From the NCBI GenBank assembly GCA_030685215.1, contig JAUXQB010000278.1, positions 2,599-66,598 on the forward strand: a stretch of DNA of 64,000 nt, in the 5' to 3' direction. The notes below the pieces were generated by a model that worked only from the letters and a program-made list of their open reading frames with translations, made no database searches and was not told where the DNA came from. The number at the start of each line of letters is the position of its first letter. The first letter of the stretch is position 1. The translations under genes and the position numbers were made by a program. Positions 1,898-46,176 of the stretch are shown in pieces. This DNA comes from Actinomycetota bacterium. Lineage in GTDB: Bacteria > Actinomycetota > Acidimicrobiia > Acidimicrobiales > Ilumatobacteraceae.

Positions 1898-2523
1898 CCG
1901 ACACGGTGGCCGCGTTCGACGTCGACGGCACGCTCACGGTGCGCGACTGCGTGAAGCCGTTCCTGCTGCGCGTCGGTGGCTGGCCGGCGGTGTCGCGCGC
2001 ACTGCTGCACAAGCCGGGTGCCACGCTCGGCGCCGCGGCCCGTCGAGATCGCGATCGGATGAAGGAACTGGTGGTGGGCGGCGTGCTGCGTGGCCGCAAG
2101 GTGGCGCACGTCGAGGCGTTGGGTGAGCAGTTCGCCGAGCAGGTGGAGGCCGGGTGGATGCGCGCCGACACGATGGGCCGGCTCCGCTGGCACCAACGTG
2201 CGGGCCACCGCATCGTGCTCGTCTCCGCCTCGCTCGGGCCCTACCTGCGGCCGCTCGGTCGCCGGTTGGGTGTCGACGACGTGCTCTGCGCCGAACCGCT
2301 GCGAGCGGGTGACGAGTTCGCCGACGGCCTCGACGGTGCCAACTGTCGTGCAGGGGAGAAGGTGCGGCGCCTCGATGCGTGGCTGGTGCTGCGACGCATG
2401 GAGGACGCCACCGTGTGGGCGTACGGCGACAGCGCCGGCGACCGCGAGTTGCTGGCCCGCGCGGACCACCCGCTGCTGGTCACCCGCACGTTGGTGTCGG
2501 CCGTGCCCTCGGGTTTCGAATGA
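1894..2523 (+). CDS. HAD-IB (SerB-like) family phosphatase
   Basis: ATG 1894 overlaps the aroA stop (ATGA). HAD motifs present: 'FDVDGTLT' (DxDGT), 'VLVSAS', 'YGDSAGDRELL'. Only the last 209 codons of track ORF 721..2523 are taken as real. Confidence 0.8.
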   Translation: MTDTVAAFDVDGTLTVRDCVKPFLLRVGGWPAVSRALLHKPGATLGAAARRDRDRMKELVVGGVLRGRKVAHVEALGEQFAEQVEAGWMRADTMGRLRWHQRAGHRIVLVSASLGPYLRPLGRRLGVDDVLCAEPLRAGDEFADGLDGANCRAGEKVRRLDAWLVLRRMEDATVWAYGDSAGDRELLARADHPLLVTRTLVSAVPSGFE

Positions 2524-3386
2524 TCCGCGCCATCGTCCGCGAAGCGCGGCCCAAGCAGTGGGCCAAGAACGTGCTCGTCTTCGCCGCGCCCGGCGCCGCC
2601 GGTGTGCTCGACAACTGGTCGTTCCTGTGGCGCACCATCCTCGCGTTCGTCGCGTTCTGCCTGGTCAGCAGCGGCACCTACTACTGGAACGACATCCACG
2701 ACGTGGAGGCCGACCGGCAGCATCCGACCAAGTCGAAGCGGCCCATCGCGAGCGGCACACTGCCCATCGGCGTGGCCAAGGTGGTCGGGTCGCTGATGCT
2801 GGGTGGCGGCATCGCACTCGCGTTCGGCCTGGGCTGGCAGATGGGCGTGGTGGCGCTCAGCTATGTCGTCCTCACCACGCTCTACAGCACGGTGCTCAAG
2901 CACGTCGCCGTCGTCGACCTGGTGGCTGTCGCCGCCGGTTTCGTGCTGCGCGCCATCGCCGGCGCCGTGGTCACCGACGTGAAGATGAGCACCTGGTTCG
3001 TGCTGTGCACGTCGTTCGGGTCGCTGTTCATCGTCACCGGCAAGCGGTTCGCCGAGCTGCGCGAGATGGGCGACAGCTCCGCCACGCGCGCGACGCTCGA
3101 CGACTACACGCTCCCGTTCCTGCAGACCGTGCTGTCGGTCGCCGTCGGTGCCACGCTCGTCACCTACTGCATCTGGGCGTTCGAGGTGCGTGAGGTGTCG
3201 GGCAGTTCGTGGCCGTTCTACGAGCTGTCGATCGTGCCGATGCTGACGGCGCTGCTGCGCTACACGCTCATCCTCGAGCAGGGCCACGGTGCCGCGCCGG
3301 AGGAGATCTTCGCTGCGGACCGCACGCTGCAGATCCTCGGCGTGGTGTGGGCGATCGTTTTCGGACTGGGAGTGTACGTAGGGTGA
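2520..3386 (+). CDS. ubiA: decaprenyl-phosphate phosphoribosyltransferase (DPPR synthase, UbiA superfamily, Rv3806c-like)
   Basis: ATG 2520 overlaps the HAD stop (ATGA). 'EARPKQWAKNVLVFAAP...YYWNDIHDVEADRQHPTKSKRPIASG' matches the Rv3806c-type signature. Multi-TM. Confidence 0.88.
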   Translation: MIRAIVREARPKQWAKNVLVFAAPGAAGVLDNWSFLWRTILAFVAFCLVSSGTYYWNDIHDVEADRQHPTKSKRPIASGTLPIGVAKVVGSLMLGGGIALAFGLGWQMGVVALSYVVLTTLYSTVLKHVAVVDLVAVAAGFVLRAIAGAVVTDVKMSTWFVLCTSFGSLFIVTGKRFAELREMGDSSATRATLDDYTLPFLQTVLSVAVGATLVTYCIWAFEVREVSGSSWPFYELSIVPMLTALLRYTLILEQGHGAAPEEIFAADRTLQILGVVWAIVFGLGVYVG

Positions 3387-3391
3387 GCAGC

Positions 3392-4135: not shown

Positions 4136-5496
4136 TGCCGTCGGCTCGTCGTCTGCTCACCGGCTGGGGTCGCACGAACGCCACCGTGGCGGAGGTGCTC
4201 GAACTGCCCAACCACGAGGTGCCCGCCGCGCTCAAGGAAGCCGGCGATCGAGGCGCGCTGGTGCGCGGACTGGGTCGCAGCTACGGCGATGCTGCGCAGA
4301 ACGCCGGCGGGCTGGTGATGCGGCTGCTCGGCTCGGCACACCAGTCGGTGGTCGACTCGGCGGCGGCAACGGTCACTGTGCCAGCCGGCGTGAGCATCGA
4401 CGATCTGTTGCGCGTGATCGTGCCGCGCGGGTTCTTCGTCCCGGTCACCCCCGGCACCCGGTTCGTCACCATCGGCGGCGCCATCGCCAGCGACATCCAC
4501 GGCAAGAACCACCACGTCGAAGGGTCGTTCGGCAACCACGTCGCGGCGCTCACGCTGCTGCTCGCCGACGGCACGCAGGTGGTCGTCGGTCCCCACCTGC
4601 AGCCGGAGCTGTTCTGGGCCACCGTCGGCGGCATGGGCCTCACCGGGGTCATCCTCGACGCCACCGTGCGCCTGCTGCCGATCGAGACCAGCCGCATGTC
4701 GGTCGACACGCAACGTGTGCCGGATCTCGACTCGCTGTTCACCGCGATGGCGGAACACGACGACGACTACCGCTACAGCGTCGCCTGGATCGATCCGCAG
4801 GCGAAGGGTCGTTCGCTCGGTCGCAGCGTGCTCAGCCGCGGCGACCACGCACGCCTCGACCAGCTGGGGCCGCGCGAGGCCATCGATCCGCTGGCGTACG
4901 GCGCCAAGCAGCTGGTCTCGATGCCGCCGCTCATCCCGCCGATGGGCGTCATCAACCACGCCACCGTCGCCGCGTTCAACGAGATGTGGTACCGCAAGGC
5001 ACCACGCCACCGTGAGGGCGAGCTGCAGACCATCGCCGGCTACTTCCACCCGCTCGACATGGTCGGCAAGTGGAACCGCATCTACGGCTCCAAGGGCATG
5101 CTGCAGTACCAGTTCGTCGTGCCGTTCGGTGAGGAGGAGACGATGCGAACGGTGATCGAGCGCCTCTCGGCGAGCGGCACCGCCAGCTTCCTCGCAGTGC
5201 TGAAGCGCTTCGGCCCCGGGAGCCAGGCGCCGCTCAGCTTCCCCGCCCCGGGCTGGACGCTGGCGCTCGACGTGCCCGCCGGTTCCAGCGGTCTCGGCGG
5301 CATGTTGCACAGCCTCGACCGCCTGGTGCTCGACGCCGGCGGTCGCCACTACTTCGCCAAGGACTCCGTCACCACTCCCGACGCCATCCGTCGTGGGTAC
5401 CCGCGCCTCGCCGAGTGGAAGGCCGTGCGCGACGGCGTCGACCCCACCGGCGTGTGGCAGAGCGACCTCTCCCGCCGCCTCGGCCTCACCGACTGA
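4123..5496 (+). CDS. dprE1: decaprenylphosphoryl-beta-D-ribose 2'-oxidase (FAD)
   Basis: 'LTGWGRT...RGLGRSYGDAAQN', 'GGAIASDIHGKNHH', 'LQYQFVVP' and 'FGPGSQAPLSFPAPGW' are colinear with M. tuberculosis Rv3790. ATG 4123 is in frame within track ORF 3439..5496. Confidence 0.92.
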   Translation: MAVLVPSARRLLTGWGRTNATVAEVLELPNHEVPAALKEAGDRGALVRGLGRSYGDAAQNAGGLVMRLLGSAHQSVVDSAAATVTVPAGVSIDDLLRVIVPRGFFVPVTPGTRFVTIGGAIASDIHGKNHHVEGSFGNHVAALTLLLADGTQVVVGPHLQPELFWATVGGMGLTGVILDATVRLLPIETSRMSVDTQRVPDLDSLFTAMAEHDDDYRYSVAWIDPQAKGRSLGRSVLSRGDHARLDQLGPREAIDPLAYGAKQLVSMPPLIPPMGVINHATVAAFNEMWYRKAPRHREGELQTIAGYFHPLDMVGKWNRIYGSKGMLQYQFVVPFGEEETMRTVIERLSASGTASFLAVLKRFGPGSQAPLSFPAPGWTLALDVPAGSSGLGGMLHSLDRLVLDAGGRHYFAKDSVTTPDAIRRGYPRLAEWKAVRDGVDPTGVWQSDLSRRLGLTD

Positions 5497-5510
5497 AAGA
5501 TCACCCACTC

Positions 5511-6272
5511 ATGGACAACGCGCTCGGCGAACCTCAGACCATCCTGCTGCTCGGCGGCAACAGCGACATCGGCCTCGCCATCGTGCGCGAGCTGCTCAGC
5601 CCGAACGCGCGCACGGTGGTGCTCGCGTGCCGCGACACGGGCAAGGGCGAGCAGGCAGCTGCCGGGCTGCGCCACGACCGGCTGGCAGTGCACGTGGTGC
5701 AGTTCGACGGCGCGGCCTCGAACACGCACGAAGCGCTGGTTCGCTCGATCGGCGAGCAGTACGGCGACATCGACCTCGCGATCATCGCGTTCGCGTTGCT
5801 CGGCGATGGCGAGGCCACGTCGAAGGATGTCGCCGCTGCCACCGAGGTGGCCGCGGTCAACTTCACCGGCGTGATGTCGGCCACCATCGCGGTGGCGAAC
5901 CGCATGCGCGTGCAGGGCCACGGTGCCATCGTGATGCTCAGCAGCGTGGCCGGCGAACGAGTGCGCGCGGCCAACGCCGTCTACGGCGCCACCAAGGCCG
6001 GCATCGACGGCTTCGCGCAGGGCCTCGGCGACGAACTCGCCGGCGAGGGGGTGCACATGCTGGTCGTGCGCCCGGGTTTCGTCCACTCGGCGATGACCGC
6101 CGGGCTGAAGGCCGCCCCGTTCGCCACCACGCCGGAGGCCGTCGCGGCTGCCACCGCGAAAGGCCTGCGTTCGAAGCGGCGCACGGTGTGGGCGCCGGGC
6201 ATCCTGCGCGTCGTGTTCATGACGCTGCGTCACGTGCCCGGCCCCATCTGGCGACGCCTGCCCCTCGGCTGA
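5511..6272 (+). CDS. dprE2: decaprenylphosphoryl-2-keto-ribose reductase (SDR)
   Basis: 'PQTILLLGGNSDIGLAI', 'IVMLSSVAGERVRAANAVYGATKAG' and 'VVRPGFV' are colinear with Rv3791. ATG 5511 is 15 nt after the dprE1 stop. Confidence 0.9.
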   Translation: MDNALGEPQTILLLGGNSDIGLAIVRELLSPNARTVVLACRDTGKGEQAAAGLRHDRLAVHVVQFDGAASNTHEALVRSIGEQYGDIDLAIIAFALLGDGEATSKDVAAATEVAAVNFTGVMSATIAVANRMRVQGHGAIVMLSSVAGERVRAANAVYGATKAGIDGFAQGLGDELAGEGVHMLVVRPGFVHSAMTAGLKAAPFATTPEAVAAATAKGLRSKRRTVWAPGILRVVFMTLRHVPGPIWRRLPLG

Positions 6273-10007: not shown

Positions 10008-10024
10008 CGCTCAAGGCAGTTGGC

Positions 10025-10061
10025 GAAGCGATTCATCGCGGGTGCCGCGATGAAACGCTTC
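10025..10061. terminator. bidirectional terminator-like hairpin between convergent genes
   Basis: GAAGCGATTCATCGCGG-GTG-CCGCGATGAAACGCTTC gives 16 bp plus one A/A mismatch. There is no U-tract, which is common in GC-rich actinobacteria. Confidence 0.55.
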
Positions 10062-10095
10062 CCGAAGGTGTCGAGATGCCCGAGCGACGCCGTGC

Positions 10096-11271: not shown

Positions 11272-11278
11272 GCTCGGC

Positions 11279-11284
11279 ACCGTA
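11279..11284 (-). promoter_or_regulatory. -10-like hexamer TACGGT, 7 nt upstream of ATG 11271
   Basis: TANNNT on the minus strand. Confidence 0.4.
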
Positions 11285-11320
11285 GTGCCCAGTCCGACGG
11301 CCGGAACCCGCGCCCGCTCG

Positions 11321-12361
11321 TCAGCCGGGCAGCAGGCGGGTGGCGGTCTTCAGCACTCGCAGCGCGCCTTGCTTGGCGATGGTGCGATGGTGGCTGCGGC
11401 CTTCGTCGGCGGTGCTCGCACGGTTCGCCAAGAACCAGTCGTAGCTGTCGGCCAGCATCTCCGCGTTGGAGTACTTCGGCGACCACCCGAGTGCATCGTG
11501 CACGTGCTGCGTGTCGAACCACAACGACTTGCTGTACATCAGCCAGTGGTACGGGGCGAACGGCGCGAGGTGCAGGCCGGCGGCCGCCTTCATGCCCAGC
11601 GCGGCCGGACCGGCGGGCAGCGAGCGCACCTTCGAGCCCGTGCCGGCATGCGCACACAGCGCTTCCAGCGACTCGCGCATGGTTCCGAAGCGGTCGGTGC
11701 CGGCGTTGAACACCGCGGGTCCGGGCGACGCGCCTGCGAGCACGCACACGTCGGCGAGATCGTCGGCGTGCACGAACTGGTAGCGGTTGCTGCCGTCGCC
11801 GAGCACGAAGATGTCGGCACCGTCGGCCACCCATTCGAACAGGATGCCGAAGATGCCGAGCCGGCCGTGGCCGAGAATGGTGCGTGGCCGCACGATCGTG
11901 ACATCGAGTCCGTTGCGCACCGCGTCGAGGCACGCCCATTCGGCGGCGAGCTTGGCGTGGCCGTAGGCCTCGACGGGGGAGGGGACGGTGGTGGGCAGCA
12001 CCGGATTGCTGCGCGGCACCCCGAACACCGCGCTGCTCGAGGTGTGCACCACCTTGCGCACGCCGGCGCGCAGGCACTCGGCCAGCAGCAGCGTGGTGCC
12101 GTCGACGTTGACGGTGCGCAGCAGCTCCTCGTCCTTGGCCAGCGGCACCTGCGCGACGTTGTTGAACACCACGTCGACGCCCTGCACCGCGCGGGCCACG
12201 ACCGCGGCGTCGCGGATGTCGCCCTGCACCAGTTCCACCCCGGCGGGGCGGTCGTCGACGTCGTTGAGGTCGAGCACGCGCACGGTGTGGCCGGCCGCGA
12301 CCAGCCGGTGGACGAGCAGCGAACCGAAGTAGCCGCTGCCGCCGGTGACGAGCGCGATCAC
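11321..12361 (-). CDS. NAD-dependent epimerase/dehydratase (SDR fold)
   Basis: GTG 12361 overlaps the upstream stop (GTGA). Motifs 'ALVTGGSGYFGSLLV', 'HTSSSAVFG', 'YGHAKLAAE' (YxxxK). The rest of track ORF 11321..12859 is out-of-frame overlap. Confidence 0.85.
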   Translation of the reverse strand: MIALVTGGSGYFGSLLVHRLVAAGHTVRVLDLNDVDDRPAGVELVQGDIRDAAVVARAVQGVDVVFNNVAQVPLAKDEELLRTVNVDGTTLLLAECLRAGVRKVVHTSSSAVFGVPRSNPVLPTTVPSPVEAYGHAKLAAEWACLDAVRNGLDVTIVRPRTILGHGRLGIFGILFEWVADGADIFVLGDGSNRYQFVHADDLADVCVLAGASPGPAVFNAGTDRFGTMRESLEALCAHAGTGSKVRSLPAGPAALGMKAAAGLHLAPFAPYHWLMYSKSLWFDTQHVHDALGWSPKYSNAEMLADSYDWFLANRASTADEGRSHHRTIAKQGALRVLKTATRLLPG

Positions 12362-13500
12362 AGTTCCAGCCCCTGGTCGAGGCACCAGCGGATGCTGCGA
12401 CGCATGCCCTCGTACAGCGCGACCTGCGGCACGTAGCCGATCTCGGCGGTGGAGCGGCTGATGTCGACCGCGATGGTGTGGCCCATCTCGCCGAGCACGT
12501 GCAGTTGCTGCTGGTACAGCCCCACGGCCTGCAGCACGCGATCGCCGGCCTCGGCCACGCGTGCGGCCAGTGTGGGCAGTCGGGTGGTGGGCGGCGTCAC
12601 CGAGAGGCCTTCGTCGGTGAGAGCACGACCGACGGTCTCGACGATCTCGTCGACGGTGTAGGCCCGCTCGTCGGCGATCCAGTAGCCCTTGCCGCGAGCA
12701 GCAGGCACCAGTTCGGCGCAGAAGACGCCGTCGACCAGGTTGTCGACGTAGACCATCGAGCGTCGCTGATCGCCCTTGCCGATGACGGGGAACTTGCCGG
12801 TGCGCACCATGCGGAAGAAGGTGGTCTGCCGCGGTGGCTGGAACGGGCCGTAGAACCACGGCGGCCGCACGATGGTGGCGTCGAGCCCCGCGGCCACCGC
12901 TTCGTCGACGGCCATCTCGGCCTGCATCTTCGATGCGCCGTAGCCGAGGTACGGGTGGAACGGCTCGTCGTGCCGGAACGTGTCGGCAGGGTCGGGGTTG
13001 GTGCCGAACGGGCTGTTCGACGAGACGTGCACGAACCTGCGCACGCCTGCGTCGCCGGCCGCCTGCGCGAGGTGGCGGGTGCCGTTGGTGTTGACCTCGT
13101 AGAACTGGCGCACGCGCGACGGATGGATGACGCCCGCGGTGTGGAGCACGTCGGTGTCGGTGGTGAGCCCGTACAACAGGCGCGCCGCGGTGTCGGCCTT
13201 GGCCACGTCGCCGATGACGATCTCCACGGCAGTGACGGCAGTGGCCCCTGCGGCGCGTTCGGCGGCGATGAACGCGCGCAGGTCTGCGGCCTCGGCGGTG
13301 CTGTGCGCGAGCAGTCGCAGCGCGCGTCGGTGGGGGTCGGCGAGCAGGCGGTGCACCAGCGCGCGACCGAGCCAGCCGGCGGCACCGGTGATCACGGTGG
13401 TGCCCGGTGGCGACCAGCGTTCGATGACCACCGGCGGCGGCGACGGCGATGTGGATGGTTCAGGCACGACGACCTCCAGTGGCGGCGAAACGTCGGGCAT
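12358..13500 (-). CDS. NAD-dependent epimerase/dehydratase (3-beta-HSD-like SDR)
   Basis: 'VITGAAGWLGRALV', 'HVSSNSPFG', 'YGASKMQAE'. ATG 13500 overlaps the GMC gene by 41 nt; an alternative GTG at 13467 would give an 8-nt overlap. Confidence 0.82.
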   Translation of the reverse strand: MPDVSPPLEVVVPEPSTSPSPPPVVIERWSPPGTTVITGAAGWLGRALVHRLLADPHRRALRLLAHSTAEAADLRAFIAAERAAGATAVTAVEIVIGDVAKADTAARLLYGLTTDTDVLHTAGVIHPSRVRQFYEVNTNGTRHLAQAAGDAGVRRFVHVSSNSPFGTNPDPADTFRHDEPFHPYLGYGASKMQAEMAVDEAVAAGLDATIVRPPWFYGPFQPPRQTTFFRMVRTGKFPVIGKGDQRRSMVYVDNLVDGVFCAELVPAARGKGYWIADERAYTVDEIVETVGRALTDEGLSVTPPTTRLPTLAARVAEAGDRVLQAVGLYQQQLHVLGEMGHTIAVDISRSTAEIGYVPQVALYEGMRRSIRWCLDQGLEL

Positions 13501-14926
13501 TGCGGATGGCGAACGCCATGACCGATGCCTGCGGGTTGACGCCGGGTGCCGTGGGCAGCAGCGAGGCGTCGTTGACGAAGATGTTGGTGCAACCGTGCAC
13601 GCGACCGAACGAGTCGGCGCCGGTGCGGCCCTCGAGTTCGCCCATCGGCACGGTGCTGCACAGGTGCACGGTCATCACGCTCGCCTTGGTGGCCGAGAAC
13701 GCCTGCTGCATGGTGGCCACGTCGCGACGGTTGCGCACCGACGGCGCGCCCTTGAACGACGGGTACACCTCGAGCGCGCCGGCCTCGAGCATCAAGAGAG
13801 CCAGCCGGGCGAGCCCGCTGCGCAGCAACGCGCGATCGCGCCAGGTGAGGCCATAGGTGACGATGGGGTCCTTCATGTGCGGGACGGATCGCACCTTGCC
13901 CAGACCCTCGCTGGTGATGGCCGCGTAGTAGACGCTCATCTGCTCCCACTGGGTGATGGCGTTGCGGAACGTGGGCCACTGGTCGAGCAGCGTGAGCGCC
14001 ACCAGCCCCGGGTTGCTGGCCGAGCCGCCGAACGACAGGTGTGGGGCGAACTCCTTCACCTGGTGCACGGGCACGTCGTCGGGCACGTTGAGCGAATCCG
14101 CGAACCGTGCGGCCAGTTTCACCGTCGGGTGCACGGCCAGCGAGCGGCCGATGTGGCCGTGGATGCCCGAGCGCTGCAGGAGCGCCGGTGACTGGATGGC
14201 GCCACCGCACACGAACACGTGACGGAAGGTGATGGTGCCCTTGCTGCCGTCGGCGAGGGTGGTGAGCGCCGACGCGGCGGTGCCGTGCCGGGTGACCAGC
14301 CGGTCGACGCGGCAGCCGACGGCGAGCCGGGCGCCGGCGCGCATGGCCCGCGGCAGGTAGGTGCGTGTCATCGACTGGCGCTGCCCGCCGGCCGCGTCGT
14401 CGGCGGACGGATAGCTCATCCACCGCGGGATCTCACCGTTGCGCCAACCGAGCTTGTCGGCACCACGCCGAAGCACTTCACTGGGCTCGGAGTACGCGCC
14501 GGGCGCCGTGCACACGCTGATGTCGCGCTCCACCTCGTCGGCGATGGCCAACAGGTCGGCCGGGTCGAAGTCGACGATCTGGAACTGGTCGCGCCAGCGT
14601 TCGAGCACGTCGCCCGGGGGACGCCAGTAGAGCCCGCTGTTCACTTCCGTGCCGCCGCCGGCACAACGGCCTTCCGTGTACGCGATGGACGGCAGGCCGA
14701 GTGCGACGGTGACGCCACCGGCTCGGTACTGGCGGTCCATCTGCTCGAGCGAGAACGGGACGACGGAGCCCTGCTCGACCCATTCGCCCTCCTCGACCAC
14801 CAGCACGTCGAAGCCGGCCTCGGCGAGCACCGACGCGGTGGTGGCGCCACCGGCTCCGCTGCCGATGACGAGCACCTCGGCATCCATCGCGACGGTGGCG
14901 CGCTGCACGGGCACGTCGGGTGGCAT
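13460..14926 (-). CDS. GMC-family FAD oxidoreductase
   Basis: 'VLVIGSGAGGATTASVLAEAGFDVLVVEEG' (FAD fold) and C-terminal 'HLCSTVPMG...NIFVNDASLLP' (GMC signature). ATG 14926, alternative 14887. The upstream part of track ORF 13460..16183 is rejected. Confidence 0.85.
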   Translation of the reverse strand: MPPDVPVQRATVAMDAEVLVIGSGAGGATTASVLAEAGFDVLVVEEGEWVEQGSVVPFSLEQMDRQYRAGGVTVALGLPSIAYTEGRCAGGGTEVNSGLYWRPPGDVLERWRDQFQIVDFDPADLLAIADEVERDISVCTAPGAYSEPSEVLRRGADKLGWRNGEIPRWMSYPSADDAAGGQRQSMTRTYLPRAMRAGARLAVGCRVDRLVTRHGTAASALTTLADGSKGTITFRHVFVCGGAIQSPALLQRSGIHGHIGRSLAVHPTVKLAARFADSLNVPDDVPVHQVKEFAPHLSFGGSASNPGLVALTLLDQWPTFRNAITQWEQMSVYYAAITSEGLGKVRSVPHMKDPIVTYGLTWRDRALLRSGLARLALLMLEAGALEVYPSFKGAPSVRNRRDVATMQQAFSATKASVMTVHLCSTVPMGELEGRTGADSFGRVHGCTNIFVNDASLLPTAPGVNPQASVMAFAIRNARRFAATGGRRA

Positions 14927-14928
14927 GC

Positions 14929-15267
14929 TCACGTCGATGCTCCGGTGGGAGTGGTGGAGGGCCAGTGCTCCCACACGTACGCGAAGCTCAGCGAGCGGAT
15001 CAGCCGCGGGTATTCCGCCACCAGTGGGAGCGGCAGCTTCATCAGCACCGAGACCGCGGTCCAGCCGCCCGGCACGGCGAGCAGCGTGCGGAACACCGAC
15101 CCCAGCACGAGCACACCGAAGCGGGTGAAGCTGGGGAGCGTGTCGATGCGATGCGCGACGAAGCCGACCGTCTCGTTGCGCTTCGCCGTCGGCAGGTCGG
15201 GAAGATCGGTGGCCAGCAGCCGCTGAGCGAACGAACCGACGACGGGAAGAGCGGGCACCTGGGGCAT
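14929..15267 (-). CDS. small hydrophobic protein of unknown function, coupled to the GMC oxidoreductase
   Basis: 112 aa with two or three hydrophobic stretches ('FGVLVLGSVFRTLLAV', 'AVSVLMKLPLPLV'). Its stop lies 2 nt before the GMC ATG, and a -10 hexamer lies upstream. Confidence 0.5.
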   Translation of the reverse strand: MPQVPALPVVGSFAQRLLATDLPDLPTAKRNETVGFVAHRIDTLPSFTRFGVLVLGSVFRTLLAVPGGWTAVSVLMKLPLPLVAEYPRLIRSLSFAYVWEHWPSTTPTGAST

Positions 15268-15277
15268 GAGCGCCTGA

Positions 15278-15283
15278 ATCGTA
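15278..15283 (-). promoter_or_regulatory. -10-like hexamer TACGAT, 10 nt upstream of ATG 15267
   Basis: TANNNT on the minus strand, in the divergent intergenic region. Confidence 0.4.
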
Positions 15284-15362
15284 CCCGTGGAGGTGCGCTG
15301 AGCGGGGCTTGGTGCACGCGAGTCGGACGGGTGGTTGCCAGGGGCCGCGACGTCCCGCGAGA

Positions 15363-15368
15363 TAGCAT
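15363..15368 (+). promoter_or_regulatory. -10-like hexamer TAGCAT, 8 nt upstream of GTG 15377
   Basis: TANNNT in the divergent intergenic region. Confidence 0.4.
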
Positions 15369-15376
15369 CGCCGCCC

Positions 15377-16114
15377 GTGCGTGCTGTCGTCGTCATTCCC
15401 ACCTACAACGAGCGTGAGAACGTCGTGGCGATGCTGCAGGCACTCCGCAGCCAGGTGCCCGCCGCGCACGTGATGATCGTCGACGACCTCAGTCCCGACG
15501 GCACCGGCGGGCTCGCCGACGAGGCGGCCGCCGAGCTGGGACAGGTGACGGTGGTGCACCGCAGCGGCAAGCCGGGGTTGGGTGCGGCCTATCGCCACGG
15601 CTTCCAACTCGCCTTCGACGAGGGCTTCGACGCCATCGTGTCGATGGACAGCGACTTCTCGCACGATCCCGCGGTCGTGCCGACGATGTTGCGCCTCCTC
15701 GAGGAGGGCGCCGACGTGGTCATCGGCAGCCGCTACGTGGCGGGCGGTGGCACGCAGGACTGGCCGTTGCGCCGGCGGCTGCTCTCCAAGTGGGGCAACC
15801 GCTACGCCAGCGCGTTGCTGGGCGCCAAGGTGCGCGACTGCACGGCCGGCTTCCGTGCCTACCGGGCCGAGACGCTGCGGGCCATCGAGCCCGGCAGCAC
15901 CGCCGCCGAGGGCTACGCGTTCCTCACCGAGCTCACCCGCCGACTGGCTCGCAGCGGCGCCACCATCGTCGAGACGCCCATCATGTTCAAGGACCGCGAG
16001 AAGGGCACGAGCAAGATGTCGGGGCGCATCATCGTCGAGTCGATGCTGCTCGTCACCGGGTGGGGCGTGCTCGACCGAGCGCGCAGCCTGCGCCGGCGAC
16101 TCACTCGCCGATGA
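15377..16114 (+). CDS. polyprenol-phosphate hexose synthase, GT2 (Ppm1/DPM1-like)
   Basis: 'VVIPTYNEREN', 'VDDLSPDGT', 'SMDSDFSHDP', 'VIGSRY', 'KDREKGTSKMS' form the classic DPM1/Ppm1 catalytic domain. GTG 15377 is preferred; the track start is 15335. Confidence 0.85.
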   Translation: MRAVVVIPTYNERENVVAMLQALRSQVPAAHVMIVDDLSPDGTGGLADEAAAELGQVTVVHRSGKPGLGAAYRHGFQLAFDEGFDAIVSMDSDFSHDPAVVPTMLRLLEEGADVVIGSRYVAGGGTQDWPLRRRLLSKWGNRYASALLGAKVRDCTAGFRAYRAETLRAIEPGSTAAEGYAFLTELTRRLARSGATIVETPIMFKDREKGTSKMSGRIIVESMLLVTGWGVLDRARSLRRRLTRR

Positions 16115-17916
16115 GCACACGCCGGCTCGTCTGGGCACTGCGCGCCGCGATCGCGGTGCCGTACGTGATCGCGCTCGTCGCACTGAGCACCACCGACTGG
16201 TACCCGGTGCTCGACCTGGCGATGACCGAGTTGCGGGTGCGCGACGTGTTCGGCTCGCACACGCCGCTCATCGGCCTGCCGGGTCGCATCGGCACGTTCC
16301 CCGACCAGGGAAGTCACCCCGGCCCGCTGAGCTTCTACCTGGTGGCACCGATCTACCGGCTGTTCGGCAGCTCGGCCCACGGGATGCTGGTCGCCGCGGC
16401 GGTCATCAACGTGGGTGCCGCCTCGGCGGCGTTGTGGGCGGCCGGTCGCCGCGGCGGCCCGCGCCTGCTGGTGGGCATCACGGCGGTGCTGATGGCGCTG
16501 ATGGCCTGGCTCGGCGCCAGCGTCCTGACACAGCCGTGGAACCCATATCTGCCGCTGGTGAGCTTCGTGGTCGTGCTGCTCTGCACGTGGGGTGTGCTCG
16601 ACGGCGATCACGTGCTGCTGGTGCCGCTGGTGGCGTTCTCCACGCTCTGCGCGCAGACCCACGTGCCGTACCTGGCGCTGTGCGTGGTGCTGTGCGTGCT
16701 GGCGTTCGGCGCAGTGCTGGCTCGCTGGTGGACCGCGCGGGCCGTTGCGGCCGCCGAACGCCGTTCGGTGCTGATCGCGGTCGGTGTCGGCGCGCTGCTG
16801 TGGCTGCCGGTGCTGGTCGACGAGGTGCGCCGCACGCCGGGCAACGTCACGATGTTGCGTCGCCACTTCCTCTCCCCGCCGGAGGAGCCGGTGGGCTTCG
16901 CGGTGGGCCTGAAGACCGTGCTGGCCCACTTCGATCTCACGCACGTGGTCGGCAGCCTGGCCACGCGTTCTGGTGACGAGATCGAGCACCTCGACGCGCT
17001 CGCCGGCGGTCGATGGGTGATCGGCCTGCTCGTGCTGCTGGTGTGGGCGGCCGCCGCGCTGTCCTCGCGGCGCCTCGCCGACCGTCGCATCGTGCGTCTG
17101 CACCTGGTGGTCGCGGTGGGCACGGTCGTCGCGTTCGTCTCGACCGGCCGCATCTTCGGCAAGGTCTGGTACTACCTCACGCTGTGGTCCTGGTCGCTGG
17201 CCCTGCTCGCCGTGGCCGCCACGCTGTGGACCGCGTTGGCGTGGTGGGAGCGGCCGGAGCGGTCGGACCGGCGCGCCTTGCCGGTGGTGCGGGTGGCGGC
17301 GGGCATCGTCGCGGTGGCCGCCGTCGTGTTCGTCGTCGACGCTGCCACCGTGGATCCACCGGAGGACCGGCTCTCGCGTGTGCTCGGCGAGGTGGTCGGC
17401 CCCACGGCCGACGCGCTGCGCGAGGGCGTCGGCGCGGCCGACGGCGACGACGGCGTGTACGCGGTCTACTGGGAAGATGCGTACTACTTCGGTTCGCAGG
17501 GCTTCGGGTTGATCAACGAGCTCGAGCGGCGCGGCTTCGATGCTCGGGCGTACGACACGTATCGCGTGCCGATCACCCATCACCGCATCGCGCAGCCGTC
17601 GGAGGTGACGGCCGAAGTGGTGCTGGCCACCGGGGTGAACGTGGAGGTCTGGCGTGCGAAGCCCGGTGTGGTGGAGGTGGCCGTGTTCGAGCCGCGCTCG
17701 GCCGAGGAGATGGCCGAGTTCGACCAGCTGTACGCCGAGGCCGTCGAGGCGTTGCGTGCCGACGGGCTCGACGATCTGGTGCCGTTGCTCGACACCAACA
17801 TGTTCCTGGCGCGGCTGGACCCGCGACTGTCCGACGATGTGGAGGCCACGCTCACCACCCTGCTGATGCTCGGCCAGGAGACGGCAGTCTTCGTCGCTCC
17901 TCCCGGATCGTTCTAG
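16111..17916 (+). CDS. uncharacterised multi-pass membrane protein, paralog A of three (candidate GT-C glycosyltransferase)
   Basis: ATG 16111 overlaps the GT2 stop (ATGA). 601 aa. Motifs shared with paralogs B and C: 'WYPVLDLAMTELRVRDV', 'SHPGPLSFYL', 'QPWNPYLPL', 'CAQTHVPY'. About 190-aa soluble C-terminal domain. Confidence 0.6.
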   Translation: MSTRRLVWALRAAIAVPYVIALVALSTTDWYPVLDLAMTELRVRDVFGSHTPLIGLPGRIGTFPDQGSHPGPLSFYLVAPIYRLFGSSAHGMLVAAAVINVGAASAALWAAGRRGGPRLLVGITAVLMALMAWLGASVLTQPWNPYLPLVSFVVVLLCTWGVLDGDHVLLVPLVAFSTLCAQTHVPYLALCVVLCVLAFGAVLARWWTARAVAAAERRSVLIAVGVGALLWLPVLVDEVRRTPGNVTMLRRHFLSPPEEPVGFAVGLKTVLAHFDLTHVVGSLATRSGDEIEHLDALAGGRWVIGLLVLLVWAAAALSSRRLADRRIVRLHLVVAVGTVVAFVSTGRIFGKVWYYLTLWSWSLALLAVAATLWTALAWWERPERSDRRALPVVRVAAGIVAVAAVVFVVDAATVDPPEDRLSRVLGEVVGPTADALREGVGAADGDDGVYAVYWEDAYYFGSQGFGLINELERRGFDARAYDTYRVPITHHRIAQPSEVTAEVVLATGVNVEVWRAKPGVVEVAVFEPRSAEEMAEFDQLYAEAVEALRADGLDDLVPLLDTNMFLARLDPRLSDDVEATLTTLLMLGQETAVFVAPPGSF

Positions 17917-17918
17917 TG

Positions 17919-19790
17919 ATGACGCGCAGGTGGCGGCCGGGCTTCGAGTGGCTGGCTGTCGTGCCGCTCGTGATCGCTGCCGTACGTGCGCTGGTGACGA
18001 GATGGATCCCCGTGGGGGAGAACGCGCTCATGTCGCTGCGGGCCCGCGACGTGCTCACCGAACACCATCCGTGGTTGGGCACTGCGTCGTCGGGGTCGCT
18101 CACGTCGGGCACCACCGTCAGCCATCCGGGGCCGCTGCTGTTCGATCTGTTCGCACTGCCGGTGCGACTGCTGGGGCCCGGTGCCGGGCTGGTGATCGGC
18201 GCACTGCTGCTGCACTCGGCGGCCGTGCTGGTGGCCGGTGCGGCGGCGCGCCGTGCGGGCGGCGAGCGGCTCGTCGTGATCGTCACGCTCGCGTTCATCG
18301 CGCTGCAGTGGACGTTGGGTCCACAGTTGATGCTCGACCCGTGGAACCCGCACATCGTGCTGATGCCGTTCCTCGCGTTCCTCGTCTGCCTCGTCGCGGT
18401 GGCGGTGGGACACTCGCGCCTGCTCTGGCCGGCGGTGTGCTTCGGTTCACTGGTGCTGCAGACGCATGTCAGCTACGTGCTGCTGGTGCCGCTGCTCGCG
18501 CTCGGCGCCACGGGCGCCTGCTGGTGGCACGCCCGAACCGGTGGCATCGTGCGCCGTGACTGGGCGACGGCAGGGGGAGTGTTCGCGCTGCTGTGGGCGC
18601 AGCCGGTGTGGCAGCAGTTGTTCGGGCCCGGCCCGGGCAACCTGGGGTTGTTGCTGCGCAGTGGCGACAGCGAGGGTCGCGTCGGGGTGCGGCTCGGGTC
18701 GCGGTTGGTGGCCGAGGTCGTGGCTGCGCCCCCGTGGTGGGCTCGACCGTCGTTCGACCGGTCGGTGAGCGACATGCCCGTGCTCGACGCCGATGGCGGC
18801 CGGCTGCCCACTGCCGAGTGGCTCATCGGCGGCGCGATGGCGGCGCTGCTGCTGGTCGCCCTCGCTGCACTGCTGGTCGCGCTCGCCGTCACGGCGCATC
18901 GCCGCGGCGAACGGGTCGCGGTCGCGATGCTGGCCATCGCGCTGGGCGGCGTGTGCCTGGCGGTGGTCACCACGGCCATCATCCCGGCGGCCGGCTACGG
19001 CATCGCGCCGCACCAGTTGCGGTGGCTGTGGCCGCTGTCGATCTGGTGGATGGTGGCGGTGGCCTACACGGCCGTGCAACTGCTGCCGTCGGTGGCCGAT
19101 GGCATCGTGCGCGCTCGTTGGCTCGCGCCCGGCATGGCAGTGGCCGGCGTTGCGTTGTGCATCCCGTCGTACGTGGTGCCGGTGGGCGTGGCGCGCGCAC
19201 CGGGGTCGATGGACTCGGTGCGCTCCATTGTCGAGCAGATGGACGGAGTCGAGATCCCGCCGGCGGTGTTCGAGCCGTCGGGCATGTGGATCGGCGAGCC
19301 GTACAGCGTGCCGATGATCGCGGCGCTGCTGGCCGACGACCAGCCGGTGCTCGTGGCGCCCGATGCCGCCGCGCAGTACGGACGCGGCCGGGTGGCAGGA
19401 CCGGATGTGGCGTGGCGGCTGTCGTTGCGCCAGGGAGCGGAGGCGCTGGTCTGTGCCGATGCCGACCGTCTGGCGCTCGACACGCCGCTCGCCGACGAGC
19501 AGGTCGCCGACTACCGAGCACTGCAGCAGCAGGTGCTCGATCTGGTGGTCGGCCTCGCCGCCACCGACGCGACGCTGCAGGCGGAGATCGATGGGCTCGG
19601 CCGACCGCTGGTCGAGTCGCTCGCCGACGGCTCGCTGACCGCAGCCGTGCTCGAATCGACCGCGGCGCTGAGCGACGACGACCTCGCCCTGCTCGCCGCG
19701 TTCGACGTGCAACGCACGGCGCTGGGCATCGACACTGTTGCCGCGTTCGTGCGGCCGCTCGACGGCCTCTACGGGCAGGGCTGCGACTGA
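17919..19790 (+). CDS. uncharacterised multi-pass membrane protein, paralog B (candidate GT-C glycosyltransferase)
   Basis: ATG 17919 (or GTG 17916) lies 2 nt after the paralog A stop. Motifs 'WIPVGENALMSLRARDV', 'SHPGPLLFDL', 'DPWNPHIVL', 'VLQTHVSY'. 623 aa. Confidence 0.6.
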   Translation: MTRRWRPGFEWLAVVPLVIAAVRALVTRWIPVGENALMSLRARDVLTEHHPWLGTASSGSLTSGTTVSHPGPLLFDLFALPVRLLGPGAGLVIGALLLHSAAVLVAGAAARRAGGERLVVIVTLAFIALQWTLGPQLMLDPWNPHIVLMPFLAFLVCLVAVAVGHSRLLWPAVCFGSLVLQTHVSYVLLVPLLALGATGACWWHARTGGIVRRDWATAGGVFALLWAQPVWQQLFGPGPGNLGLLLRSGDSEGRVGVRLGSRLVAEVVAAPPWWARPSFDRSVSDMPVLDADGGRLPTAEWLIGGAMAALLLVALAALLVALAVTAHRRGERVAVAMLAIALGGVCLAVVTTAIIPAAGYGIAPHQLRWLWPLSIWWMVAVAYTAVQLLPSVADGIVRARWLAPGMAVAGVALCIPSYVVPVGVARAPGSMDSVRSIVEQMDGVEIPPAVFEPSGMWIGEPYSVPMIAALLADDQPVLVAPDAAAQYGRGRVAGPDVAWRLSLRQGAEALVCADADRLALDTPLADEQVADYRALQQQVLDLVVGLAATDATLQAEIDGLGRPLVESLADGSLTAAVLESTAALSDDDLALLAAFDVQRTALGIDTVAAFVRPLDGLYGQGCD

Positions 19791-45142: not shown

Positions 45143-45146
45143 GGCA

Positions 45147-46112: not shown

Positions 46113-46176
46113 ACGTGGTGGTGGCCCCTTCTCTTCTGTGAGTTACGTGTTGGTGGTGATCAGTGAACCGCGAGGG

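What the first reader, a model, noticed from the sequence alone, without database searches (positions are those of the whole stretch)
11321..16114. FAD oxidase plus two SDRs divergent from a lipid-sugar synthase: a possible second DprE1/DprE2-like sugar-remodelling module
A four-gene minus-strand unit encodes a small membrane protein (15267), a GMC flavoenzyme (14926) and two SDR epimerase/dehydratases (starts 13500 and 12361). The genes are abutting or overlapping: one GTGA junction, a 2-nt gap and a 41-nt overlap. The unit is transcribed divergently from the Ppm1-like synthase operon.

DPA is made by an FAD oxidase plus an SDR reductase acting on a lipid-linked sugar. The same chemical logic (oxidise, then reduce or epimerise) placed next to another polyprenyl-P-sugar synthase suggests in-situ conversion of a second lipid-linked sugar into a rarer epimer or keto/deoxy sugar. 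This is hypothesis only. The SDRs could equally act on nucleotide sugars.
Basis: inference. Interest (0 to 1): 0.65.

Follow-up and report, generated by a model that had tools for sequence, protein, structure and literature searches.

The report
Flavoenzyme–reductase module for lipid-linked pentose
A tightly packed four-gene operon (a small helical subunit, an FAD oxidase and two NAD-type reductase/epimerases) belongs to an uncharacterised module that sits beside lipid-linked ribose synthases in at least five bacterial phyla, so it probably remodels a lipid-carried five-carbon sugar by a route parallel to the tuberculosis drug-target pair DprE1/DprE2.

Summary
The four minus-strand genes are real, translationally coupled, and conserved in order in about 80 Acidimicrobiia species. 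The host is an Ilumatobacteraceae bacterium.

The proposed partner is probably wrong.

Orthologues of the GMC enzyme and both SDRs (38–57% identity, mostly same order) occur in cyanobacteria, Verrucomicrobia, Bacteroidota and rhizobial symbiosis plasmids (NGR234 y4nG–y4nM). There they sit next to a UbiA-type polyprenyl-phosphate phosphoribosyltransferase (19 of 22 well-flanked metagenome loci). No DprE1/DprE2 and no Ppm1-like GT2 is present (0 of 22 each).

On plasmids, the same synthase cassettes carry DprE1/DprE2, no epimerase, or this triad. The triad therefore occupies the "auxiliary epimerase" slot of the pentofuranose systems of Kelly et al. 2024.

The "small membrane protein" is a helical domain that is fused to the GMC enzyme in other phyla.

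In the window, the ribose synthase, a phosphatase and true DprE1/DprE2 lie 5–9 kb away. An AftD-like transferase lies 18 kb away and directly abuts the unit in sister lineages.

The product sugar is unknown. I found no literature on the module.

The parts
14929..15267 (-). Small subunit (112 aa). It is a helical domain that partners the GMC enzyme and is fused to the GMC N-terminus in other phyla.
   Evidence: GC3 frame. 184 homologues with many invariant polar residues. No Pfam match. No transmembrane segment. hhalign against the small ORFs and N-terminal extensions of other phyla gives probability 87%, E 4e-6. The AF2 model of a fused orthologue shows a six-helix domain with pLDDT 84-94.
13460..14926 (-). 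GMC-family FAD oxidoreductase (488 aa; alternative GTG start at 14932). Proposed oxidase of the lipid-linked sugar.
   Evidence: PF00732 and PF05199. GSGAGG FAD motif at the N-terminus with no signal peptide. Invariant His421/Asn464 in a 50-sequence family alignment. Roughly equidistant from all solved GMC subfamilies.
12358..13467 (-). SDR_A, an extended SDR (369 aa from GTG 13467; 380 aa from ATG 13500). Orthologue of NGR234 y4nL.
   Evidence: PF01370. TGAAGWLG, SSNSP and YGASK motifs conserved across phyla. 43-51% identity to the first SDR of distant loci. Fused in frame to the GMC enzyme in metagenomic protein P0267.
11321..12361 (-). SDR_B, an extended GalE-like SDR (346 aa). Orthologue of NGR234 y4nG.
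   Evidence: PF01370. TGGSGYFG, a conserved Asp at the end of beta-2 (NAD type), and SSSAVFG and YGHAK motifs. 44-57% identity to the second SDR of distant loci.
15377..16114 (+). Divergent GT2, a polyprenyl/dolichyl-phosphate hexose synthase-like protein (245 aa). It is a neighbour and probably not the substrate supplier.
   Evidence: PF00535. P. furiosus DPMS 5mlz at E 2e-32. Linkage is limited to Acidimicrobiia.
16111..19790 (+). Two paralogous polytopic membrane proteins (601 and 624 aa) co-transcribed with the GT2. Candidate GT-C transferases.
   Evidence: About 10 hydrophobic segments each. They are paralogous to each other and to 19769-21706(-). Only a weak PTPS_related hit. The fold was not tested.
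1894..3386 (+). HAD-IB phosphatase (1894-2523) and polyprenyl-phosphate phosphoribosyltransferase (2520-3386). Proposed source of the substrate, polyprenyl-P-ribofuranose.
   Evidence: NF008978 decaprenyl-phosphate phosphoribosyltransferase, 328 bits against a cut-off of 207. TIGR01490 HAD-IB, 128 bits against a cut-off of 98.
4186..6272 (+). Genuine DprE1 (4186-5496) and DprE2 (5511-6272). This is the first, canonical epimerase pair.
   Evidence: NF053785, 587 bits against a cut-off of 500. NF053786, 305 bits against a cut-off of 250.
34197..39628 (-). AftD-like GT-C (1437 aa) and PMT_2-like GT-C (373 aa). In sister lineages these lie immediately downstream of SDR_B on the same strand.
   Evidence: PF11847 GT-C_AftD at 5e-82 and PF13231. 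Adjacency in L058, L063 and about 20 other loci.

Best explanation
The unit encodes a cytoplasmic-face, three-enzyme sugar-remodelling module. It consists of a GMC flavoenzyme with its detached helical N-terminal domain, plus two extended SDRs. It acts on a polyprenyl-phosphate-linked pentofuranose.

Inferred steps:
1. The UbiA-type phosphoribosyltransferase and HAD phosphatase encoded 8-9 kb away make polyprenyl-P-beta-D-ribofuranose from PRPP.
2. The GMC enzyme oxidises a ring hydroxyl (C2' or C3') to a ketone and passes electrons to FAD. This is the role DprE1 plays.
3. SDR_A, which almost always sits next to the GMC gene and is sometimes fused to it, reduces the ketone with NAD(P)H from the opposite face. 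This is the role DprE2 plays.
4. SDR_B, which is GalE-like and of the NAD type, carries out a second epimerisation or reduction.
5. The product is a pentofuranose donor different from the arabinofuranose made by the neighbouring true DprE1/DprE2. It is flipped across the membrane and used by GT-C transferases (AftD-like, PMT_2-like, or the unclassified 600-aa paralogues).

Shown here: gene structure, families, orthology across phyla, and gene-neighbourhood statistics. Inferred: substrate, regiochemistry, product and the order of steps.
For: 1. Operon: overlapping or abutting genes. In 80 Acidimicrobiia species the small gene is adjacent in 71 of 73 loci, SDR_A in 64 of 68 and SDR_B in 63 of 68.
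2. Cross-phylum orthology, mostly with the same gene order: GMC 38-46%, SDR_A 43-51%, SDR_B 44-57% identity in Planktothrix, Lyngbya-like, Verrucomicrobia-like, Sphingobacteriales and S. fredii NGR234.
3. Partner gene: a PPPRS-like UbiA (NF008977 or NF006088 above cut-off) is adjacent in 8 of 10 hand-inspected distant loci. It is adjacent in 19 of 22 well-flanked metagenome loci. Those loci have no DprE1/DprE2 (0 of 22) and no DPMS-like GT2 (0 of 22).
4. Slot equivalence: plasmid-borne HAD~UbiA cassettes carry DprE1/DprE2-like genes (Agrobacterium, R. leguminosarum), no epimerase (Vibrio), or this triad (9 rhizobial plasmids).
5. The rhizobial cassette also has an SMR transporter and a 658-aa membrane protein and contains no Leloir glycosyltransferase gene. 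That leaves no obvious role for nucleotide-sugar enzymes. Rhizobium sp. CCGE531 CP032687.1, the plasmid that carries this cassette, is among the accessions Kelly et al. 2024 list as candidate pentofuranose side-chain systems (PMC11127046 SI).
6. Precedent: a single GalE-like SDR (ORF13) is genetically required for the ribofuranose-to-xylofuranose switch in Citrobacter. The authors infer that it epimerises undP-Ribf (PMC11127046).
7. In about 20 Acidimicrobiia lineages an AftD-like GT-C follows SDR_B directly on the same strand.
8. GMC-SDR_A fusion P0267 and small-domain-GMC fusions (27 of 80 metagenome loci; hhalign).
9. No signal peptides, so the enzymes work on the cytoplasmic side.
Against: - There is no biochemical evidence for any member.
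- Inside Acidimicrobiia the unit is more often near the DPMS-like GT2 (32 of 37 fully flanked loci) than near DprE1/DprE2/UbiA (14 of 37). In Ilumatobacter L063 the GT2 lies in the same co-directional gene string.
- The window already has DprE1/DprE2, so a second oxidise/reduce set needs a distinct product that I cannot name.
- The best sequence matches of both SDRs are nucleotide-sugar enzymes or lipid-acting SDRs, all far below family cut-offs.
- No SMR, MATE or GtrA-type flippase homologue was found in the window with the queries used.
- The GMC fold search does not discriminate sugar-oxidising from lipid-oxidising relatives.
- Why three enzymes are needed, when one SDR (ORF13) or two enzymes (DprE1/DprE2) suffice elsewhere, is unexplained.
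Confidence: 0.55

Rival explanations
1. One reading: the triad remodels the polyprenyl-P-hexose made by the adjacent Ppm1/DPMS-like GT2. For example, it could convert polyprenyl-P-mannose or -glucose into an epimer or keto/deoxy hexose for the co-transcribed 600-aa membrane transferases.
For: The divergent or co-directional GT2 lies within 1.5 kb in 34 of 69 Acidimicrobiia loci and within 10 kb upstream in 38 of 47. In L063 the genes run as one co-directional string: PMT_2-like, GT2, small, GMC, SDR_A, SDR_B, AftD-like. The GT2 is clearly DPMS-like.
Against: No DPMS-like GT2 accompanies the orthologous triad outside Acidimicrobiia: 0 of 22 well-flanked metagenome loci, and none in the cyanobacterial, Verrucomicrobia-like or rhizobial loci. 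Several Acidimicrobiia lineages lack a GT2 within 10 kb (L054, L058, L061, L066, L072, L076). The whole region is a glycan island, so adjacency could simply reflect the same polymer pathway.
Confidence: 0.17
2. The two SDRs are ordinary nucleotide-sugar epimerases, dehydratases or reductases that supply a Leloir glycosyltransferase such as the neighbouring GT4. The GMC enzyme oxidises an unrelated alcohol or a finished glycan.
For: PF01370, GDP_Man_Dehyd and RmlD_sub_bind hits. The best solved relatives are a UDP-GlcNAc/Glc 4-epimerase and dTDP-glucose 4,6-dehydratase. A GT4 gene is convergent with the unit in many Acidimicrobiia loci.
Against: All NCBIfam scores are far below cut-off, for example GalE at 76 bits against 262. 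SDR_A lacks the Asp-Glu dehydratase pair (SSNSP in place of the STDE-type motif known for RmlB-type dehydratases; the motif comparison is from my own knowledge, read on the alignment). Triad order is conserved across phyla and a GMC-SDR_A fusion exists. The rhizobial cassettes contain no Leloir glycosyltransferase or nucleotidyltransferase gene. The GT4 is not conserved with the triad outside Acidimicrobiia.
Confidence: 0.13
3. The module modifies the lipid rather than the sugar. It could oxidise and reduce the polyprenol carrier or another isoprenoid or alkyl lipid, by analogy with cholesterol oxidase plus 3-beta-HSD, HpnA or OleD.
For: The top NCBIfam hits of the SDRs include HpnA, OleD and SdmB. 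Cholesterol oxidase is among the closest folds and sequences for the GMC enzyme. UbiA-family enzymes are prenyltransferases.
Against: The linked UbiA proteins score as phosphoribosyltransferases, not aromatic or lipid prenyltransferases. They are fused to a HAD phosphatase, as in the characterised PPPRS-PRP enzyme ORF15 (PMC11127046). The cassette content (SMR plus a large membrane protein) matches glycosylation systems. All lipid-SDR scores are far below cut-off.
Confidence: 0.08

Closest known systems
DprE1/DprE2 decaprenylphosphoryl-ribose 2'-epimerase (Mycobacterium Rv3790/Rv3791; NoeH/NoeO of Azorhizobium)
   Same: Both use an FAD-dependent oxidase plus an NAD(P)H-dependent SDR. Both are genomically tied to a UbiA-type polyprenyl-phosphate phosphoribosyltransferase and to GT-C transferases. 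In PPPRS cassettes the triad occupies the same place.
   Different: The enzymes are not homologous. DprE1 is a VAO/FAD_binding_4 enzyme, whereas this one has the GMC fold. DprE2 is a 250-aa classical SDR, whereas these are two 346-370-aa extended SDRs. There is also an extra helical subunit. The window encodes true DprE1/DprE2 as well, so the product is probably not simply arabinofuranose.
Three-component pentofuranose side-chain systems with auxiliary epimerases (Kelly et al. 2024, PNAS, PMC11127046): PPPRS-PRP ORF15, MATE/SMR flippase, GT136 GT-C, ORF13 epimerase
   Same: The cassette architecture in rhizobia, cyanobacteria and Verrucomicrobia matches: HAD~UbiA synthase, SMR, a large membrane protein and SDR 'epimerases'. 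Rhizobium sp. CCGE531 CP032687.1, the plasmid that carries this cassette, is listed in their SI Fig. S12 as a candidate system of unknown glycan (locus seen).
   Different: The words GMC and oxidoreductase do not occur in the paper or its SI. The characterised epimerase is a single SDR, whereas here there is a flavoenzyme, a helical subunit and two SDRs. In the window the parts are dispersed over about 38 kb, and no flippase was found.
Heteromeric membrane-bound FAD sugar dehydrogenases (Gluconobacter fructose dehydrogenase, Burkholderia FAD-glucose dehydrogenase gamma-alpha, gluconate 2-dehydrogenase)
   Same: A GMC catalytic subunit is paired with a small helical subunit. These are the best Foldseek matches (8jej, 8grj). 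One small-subunit orthologue gives a faint PF13618 hit at E 0.014.
   Different: There is no Tat signal on the small subunit, no cytochrome c subunit, and a cytoplasmic rather than periplasmic location. The sequence relationship of the small subunit is below any threshold.
Methylthioxylose capping cluster of M. tuberculosis (Rv0539 MtxS polyprenyl-P-MTX synthase; GT-C transferase)
   Same: A GT2 polyprenyl-P-sugar synthase together with a GT-C makes a rare pentofuranose donor (PMC12088412; PMC11127046). This resembles the GT2 plus GT-C-like operon divergent from the unit.
   Different: That pathway starts from methylthioadenosine, and the papers read here mention no GMC enzyme in it. Homology of the window genes to it was not tested.

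Membership tests
GMC oxidoreductase family (Pfam PF00732/PF05199) | N-terminal FAD-binding GMC domain and C-terminal substrate domain | tested here: met
   PF00732 at 120.8 bits (cut-off 23) and PF05199 at 62.6 bits (cut-off 24.6). The AF2 model of an orthologue superposes on GMC structures with probability 1.00.
GMC oxidoreductase family (Pfam PF00732/PF05199) | GxGxxG dinucleotide motif and conserved catalytic His plus Asn/His pair near the C-terminus | tested here: met
   VIGSGAGG at residues 19-26. His421 and Asn464 are invariant in 50 family members. Their assignment as the catalytic pair is by analogy with other GMC enzymes.
Extended SDR / NAD-dependent epimerase-dehydratase (PF01370) | TGxxGxxG Rossmann motif, catalytic Ser/Thr and YxxxK | tested here: met
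   SDR_A has TGAAGWLG, SSNSP and YGASK. SDR_B has TGGSGYFG, SSSAV and YGHAK. All are conserved in cross-phylum orthologues.
DprE1 (decaprenylphosphoryl-beta-D-ribose oxidase) | VAO-type FAD_binding_4 fold; NCBIfam NF053785 equivalog | tested here: not met
   The GMC protein has no FAD_binding_4 or NF053785 hit. The true DprE1 is at 4186-5496 (587 bits). The unit may work like DprE1 but is not a member.
DprE2 (2-keto-pentofuranose reductase) | Classical ~250-aa SDR (adh_short); NF053786 equivalog | tested here: not met
   SDR_A and SDR_B are extended SDRs of 346-380 aa with no NF053786 hit. The true DprE2 is at 5511-6272.
Three-component pentofuranose glycosylation system (Kelly et al. 2024) | Polyprenyl phosphoribose synthase (UbiA type) with a phosphoribose phosphatase | tested here: met
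   In the window, 2520-3386 scores 328 bits on NF008978 (cut-off 207) and is preceded by HAD-IB at 1894-2523. These lie 8-9 kb from the unit. They are adjacent to the triad in 19 of 22 distant loci.
Three-component pentofuranose glycosylation system (Kelly et al. 2024) | Dedicated flippase (MATE, SMR or GtrA type) | tested here: inconclusive
   tblastn with two SMR proteins from orthologous cassettes finds nothing in the 64-kb window. MATE and GtrA types were not searched. An SMR is present in the rhizobial loci L088-L090 and in L083, L091, L111, L147, L171 and L173.
Three-component pentofuranose glycosylation system (Kelly et al. 2024) | GT-C glycosyltransferase that uses the lipid-linked pentose | tested here: met
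   AftD-like PF11847 at 5e-82 at 34197-38510, and adjacent to the unit in sister lineages. Membership of GT136 specifically was not tested.
ORF13-type undP-ribofuranose 3-epimerase | Sequence orthology to C. youngae O2 ORF13 | not testable with these tools
   The ORF13 sequence (MH325884.1) is in none of the available collections. Only the shared GalE-like motifs can be stated.
Gluconate 2-dehydrogenase subunit 3-like small subunits (PF13618) | Pfam match above the gathering score; Tat signal peptide | tested here: not met
   The window protein has no hit. One orthologue scores 16.2 bits against a cut-off of 23.4. The N-terminus has no twin-arginine motif.

The most novel reading that the evidence does not exclude
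The GMC, helical-subunit, SDR_A and SDR_B module is a non-homologous counterpart of DprE1/DprE2. It converts polyprenyl-P-ribofuranose (or -arabinofuranose) into a pentofuranose donor not yet known as a lipid-linked intermediate. Candidates are D-lyxofuranose (inversion at both C2 and C3, so far unseen in any glycan) or a keto or deoxy pentofuranose. If so, Acidimicrobiia, cyanobacteria, Verrucomicrobia and rhizobia would decorate envelope glycans with an undescribed sugar.
Probability: 0.3. Interest if true: 0.85.

Novelty: new variant of a known kind. Interest (0 to 1): 0.7.

Why it matters
Lipid-linked pentofuranose donors underlie mycobacterial arabinan, where DprE1 is a leading tuberculosis drug target. 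They also underlie a recently recognised, widespread way of decorating bacterial surface glycans.

If this triad is a third kind of auxiliary remodelling set, after DprE1/DprE2 and ORF13, it would:
- explain the 'more elaborate' uncharacterised cassettes noted by Kelly et al. 2024;
- assign a function to the long-orphan y4nG–y4nM genes of the NGR234 symbiosis plasmid;
- predict new sugars in the envelopes of abundant freshwater and soil Acidimicrobiia, cyanobacteria and Verrucomicrobia;
- provide a natural case of non-homologous enzymes filling the DprE1/DprE2 role.

The hypothesis can be tested directly with the farnesyl-P-pentofuranose substrates that already exist.

Tried and rejected
- Azorhizobium noeCHOP as a GMC-type precedent: rejected. 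NoeC, NoeH and NoeO are orthologues of the mycobacterial decaprenyl-P-arabinose biosynthesis genes, the pathway catalysed by UbiA, DprE1 and DprE2 (PMC5080398).
- HMM of the Acidimicrobiia small protein against the 600-aa GMC representatives: only a miscalled start was hit. Homology appeared only with profile-profile comparison.
- The genome-contig scan with a diverse alignment returned only Acidimicrobiia, because the best 80 hits are kept. It served for within-class statistics but not for distant context. That came from the look-up of encoding contigs, plasmids and the metagenome scan.
- Sequence and fold searches of the GMC enzyme against solved structures do not single out a subfamily, so they do not reveal regiochemistry.
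- The profile of the small domain against PDB sequences gave only spurious protein A hits.
- The promoter/terminator consensus scan found nothing in 10000-16300. This is uninformative for a 70% GC actinobacterium.
- Literature searches for GMC with polyprenyl, PRTase, pentofuranose or y4nJ found no description of the module.
- The phage collection held only one unannotated fragment with a PPPRS-like stretch.
- SDR_A as a 4,6-dehydratase-like enzyme (best PDB hit 1r6d): judged unlikely because the Asp-Glu pair is replaced.
- The fold of the 600-aa membrane paralogues was not predicted. No homologue set was allowed for the tool and protein searches were exhausted.

Full report
**Observation**

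The window is 70% GC. Third-position GC framing was needed to separate real genes from the many spurious ORFs. It shows four consecutive minus-strand genes:

| Gene | Coordinates | Size | Family evidence |
|---|---|---|---|
| Small protein | 14929-15267 | 112 aa | no Pfam match |
| GMC oxidoreductase | 13460-14926 | 488 aa | GMC_oxred_N and GMC_oxred_C |
| SDR_A | 12358-13467 or 12358-13500 | 369 or 380 aa | PF01370 |
| SDR_B | 11321-12361 | 346 aa | PF01370 |

There is a 2-nt gap between the small gene and the GMC gene, or a GTGA overlap if GTG 14932 is the GMC start. There is a GTGA overlap between SDR_A and SDR_B.

The 41-nt overlap between GMC and SDR_A is probably an 8-nt overlap. GTG 13467 has a GGAGG 5 nt upstream, and the orthologous loci have an 8-nt overlap.

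Coordinates 15302-16114 of the finding belong to the divergent plus-strand GT2 gene. None of the four proteins has a signal peptide. By hydropathy the small protein has no transmembrane segment.

**Host and local context**

The closest GMC homologues (73-94% identity) are named Ilumatobacteraceae or Acidimicrobiia. The window holds a large envelope-glycan island:

- HAD-IB phosphatase, 1894-2523.
- Decaprenyl-phosphate phosphoribosyltransferase, 2520-3386 (NF008978, 328 bits against a cut-off of 207).
- A methyltransferase.
- DprE1, 4186-5496 (NF053785, 587 bits against 500).
- DprE2, 5511-6272 (NF053786, 305 bits against 250).
- A GT4 and several unclassified polytopic membrane proteins of 570-645 aa. 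Three of these are paralogues.
- The DPMS-like GT2, 15377-16114 (5mlz at E 2e-32).
- Further GT2, methyltransferase and acyltransferase genes.
- An AftD-like GT-C, 34197-38510, preceded by a PMT_2-like GT-C.

**Conservation inside Acidimicrobiia**

I examined 80 species-level loci:

| Feature relative to the GMC gene | Loci |
|---|---|
| Small gene directly precedes GMC | 71 of 73 |
| SDR_A follows | 64 of 68 |
| SDR_B follows | 63 of 68 |
| DPMS-like GT2 within 1.5 kb upstream | 34 of 69 (25 divergent, 9 co-directional) |
| DPMS-like GT2 within 10 kb upstream | 38 of 47 |
| DprE1/DprE2 within 10 kb downstream | 19 of 49 |
| UbiA within 10 kb downstream | 15 of 49 |

In about 20 more divergent lineages, an AftD-like GT-C follows SDR_B directly on the same strand, often with the PMT_2-like GT-C. 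Examples are L058 and L063, the latter from an Ilumatobacter chromosome. Within the class, therefore, the unit travels with genes of an arabinan-like pathway and with the GT2.

**Beyond Acidimicrobiia**

A search of 1.84 billion cluster representatives finds 905 clusters at E <= 1e-30. Named relatives occur in Planktothrix, Lyngbya, Microcoleaceae, Verrucomicrobiae or Pedosphaera, and Sphingobacteriales. They also occur on rhizobial symbiosis plasmids.

Reciprocal BLAST shows an orthologous triad, mostly in the same order:

- GMC: 38-46% identity.
- SDR_A: 43-51% identity to the first SDR of distant loci (y4nL in NGR234).
- SDR_B: 44-57% identity to the second SDR (y4nG in NGR234).

The genes that accompany the triad are a UbiA protein, often fused to a HAD domain, an SMR-type small transporter, and one or two large unclassified membrane proteins. 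The UbiA proteins score as decaprenyl-phosphate phosphoribosyltransferase or its PRK08238 relative, above cut-off.

In a metagenome sample of 80 diverse loci, 22 have enough flank on both sides. Of these:

- 19 carry the UbiA gene.
- None carries DprE1/DprE2.
- None carries a DPMS-like GT2.

On plasmids, HAD~UbiA cassettes come with one of three contents:

- DprE1/DprE2-like genes plus GtrA (Agrobacterium salinitolerans, R. leguminosarum WSM1325).
- No epimerase (Vibrio alfacsensis).
- This triad (nine rhizobial plasmids, including pNGR234a y4nG-y4nM).

**The small protein**

In cyanobacteria and Sphingobacteriales a 112-123-aa ORF precedes the GMC gene. In Verrucomicrobia-like genomes the GMC protein is about 615 aa, with an N-terminal extension that carries the same motifs (MPDYLR..., RDLIRFYESL).

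Profile-profile comparison of the Acidimicrobiia small protein with this domain gives 87% probability and E 4e-6 over 89 columns. An AlphaFold2 model of a fused orthologue (pLDDT 80, pTM 0.85) shows a confident six-helix N-domain, joined by a disordered linker to the GMC fold.

The best structural neighbours include the large subunits of heteromeric fructose and glucose dehydrogenases, which also pair with small helical subunits. However, cholesterol, choline and C-glycoside oxidases score about equally well. The gene is thus a detached domain or subunit of the flavoenzyme, and there is no evidence that it is an integral membrane protein.

**Functional coupling**

One metagenomic protein, P0267 (858 aa), is a full-length in-frame fusion of GMC (42% identity) and SDR_A (46% identity). 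SDR_A and SDR_B keep the TGxxGxxG, Ser and YxxxK motifs in all phyla. SDR_B has the conserved Asp typical of NAD-binding GalE-like enzymes. SDR_A lacks the Asp-Glu pair of 4,6-dehydratases.

**Link to the literature**

Kelly et al. 2024 (PMC11127046) showed that alpha-pentofuranose side chains are added by three components:

- a UbiA-type polyprenyl phosphoribose synthase with a HAD phosphatase;
- a MATE or SMR flippase;
- a GT-C transferase.

Auxiliary epimerases set the sugar. DprE1/DprE2 give arabinofuranose. A single GalE-like SDR (ORF13) gives xylofuranose. Lyxofuranose is unknown.

Their SI lists Rhizobium sp. CCGE531 CP032687.1 among candidate systems. The legend says several of the listed systems contain multiple different epimerases, without naming which. 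On that plasmid, the locus I retrieved holds the GMC-containing cassette. The words GMC and oxidoreductase do not occur in the paper or its SI. Full-text searches found no description of the module or of y4nJ.

**Interpretation**

The most economical reading is that the triad fills the auxiliary-epimerase slot of polyprenyl-P-pentofuranose systems. The GMC enzyme would oxidise a ring hydroxyl of the lipid-linked ribofuranose, as DprE1 does. SDR_A would reduce the ketone with inverted stereochemistry, as DprE2 does. SDR_B would add a further epimerisation or reduction.

Acidimicrobiia keep true DprE1/DprE2 alongside the triad, so the product is probably not arabinofuranose. Its identity cannot be derived from sequence.

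I put this at 0.55. The rivals are:

It is supported only within Acidimicrobiia.
- 0.13: nucleotide-sugar SDRs plus an unrelated oxidase.
- 0.08: modification of the lipid moiety.

**Verdict**

The module is a new variant of a known kind of system. It is widespread, uncharacterised and directly testable.

Noticed in passing
window 1894-6272 (+): A complete DPA-type gene set lies in an Acidimicrobiia genome, outside the mycolate actinobacteria: HAD phosphatase, decaprenyl-phosphate phosphoribosyltransferase, DprE1 and DprE2, all above NCBIfam cut-offs. A Methyltransf_24 gene (3383-4135) sits between the synthase and DprE1. The same order occurs in L001.
   Followed up: partly
window 16111-17916 (+), 17916-19790 (+), 19769-21706 (-); also 6914-8638 (-) and 23345-25222 (-): Five polytopic membrane proteins of 570-645 aa have no Pfam family, apart from faint PTPS_related hits for two of them. 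Three are paralogues. They are likely unclassified GT-C-type transferases, but the fold was not tested.
   Followed up: partly
window 34197-39628 (-) and 42043-47706 (-): In the window, the AftD-like and PMT_2-like GT-C pair and an Opp-type ABC transporter (a lower-GC stretch, 65%) lie 18-30 kb from the unit. In L058 the same ABC transporter and GT-C pair flank the GMC unit directly. The unit has therefore moved relative to them between lineages.
   Followed up: partly
window 10096-11280 (-): A 394-aa protein with two Glyoxalase_6 domains sits between SDR_B and the convergent GT4, 40 nt downstream of SDR_B. It is absent from this position in L001 and L002. Whether it is co-transcribed with the unit is unknown.
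   Followed up: no
L059 10001-17695: In one Ilumatobacter MAG the small-GMC pair is followed directly by a membrane protein, DprE2, DprE1 and UbiA, with no SDR_A or SDR_B in the locus. This could be an informative natural variant or a rearrangement.
   Followed up: no
L044 (whole locus); L025, L041, L074 (record titles): L044 is a perfect inverted duplication of GT2-small-GMC and is probably an assembly artefact. Several MAG contigs that carry this Acidimicrobiia-type locus at 67-78% identity are titled Bifidobacterium, Ferrithrix thermotolerans or Bordetella parapertussis. These are probably mis-binned or mislabelled.
   Followed up: no
L083 12631-13176; L085 7576-8142; L107; L147: In cyanobacterial and Bacteroidota versions, a DUF218/YdcF-like gene is often inserted between SDR_A and SDR_B. 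It has no homologue in the window. Its role in the module is unknown.
   Followed up: no
L094 9494-11719 (Agrobacterium salinitolerans pDG3-1a): A DprE1/DprE2-type PPPRS cassette also carries a 310-aa GalE-like epimerase and a 427-aa NAD(P)/FAD oxidoreductase. This is another 'elaborate' pentofuranose cassette that might invert two centres.
   Followed up: no
window 31778-34192 (+): An 804-aa protein has only a central spermine/spermidine-synthase-like domain. It lies between a PMT_2-like gene and the AftD-like gene. Its function is unclear.
   Followed up: no
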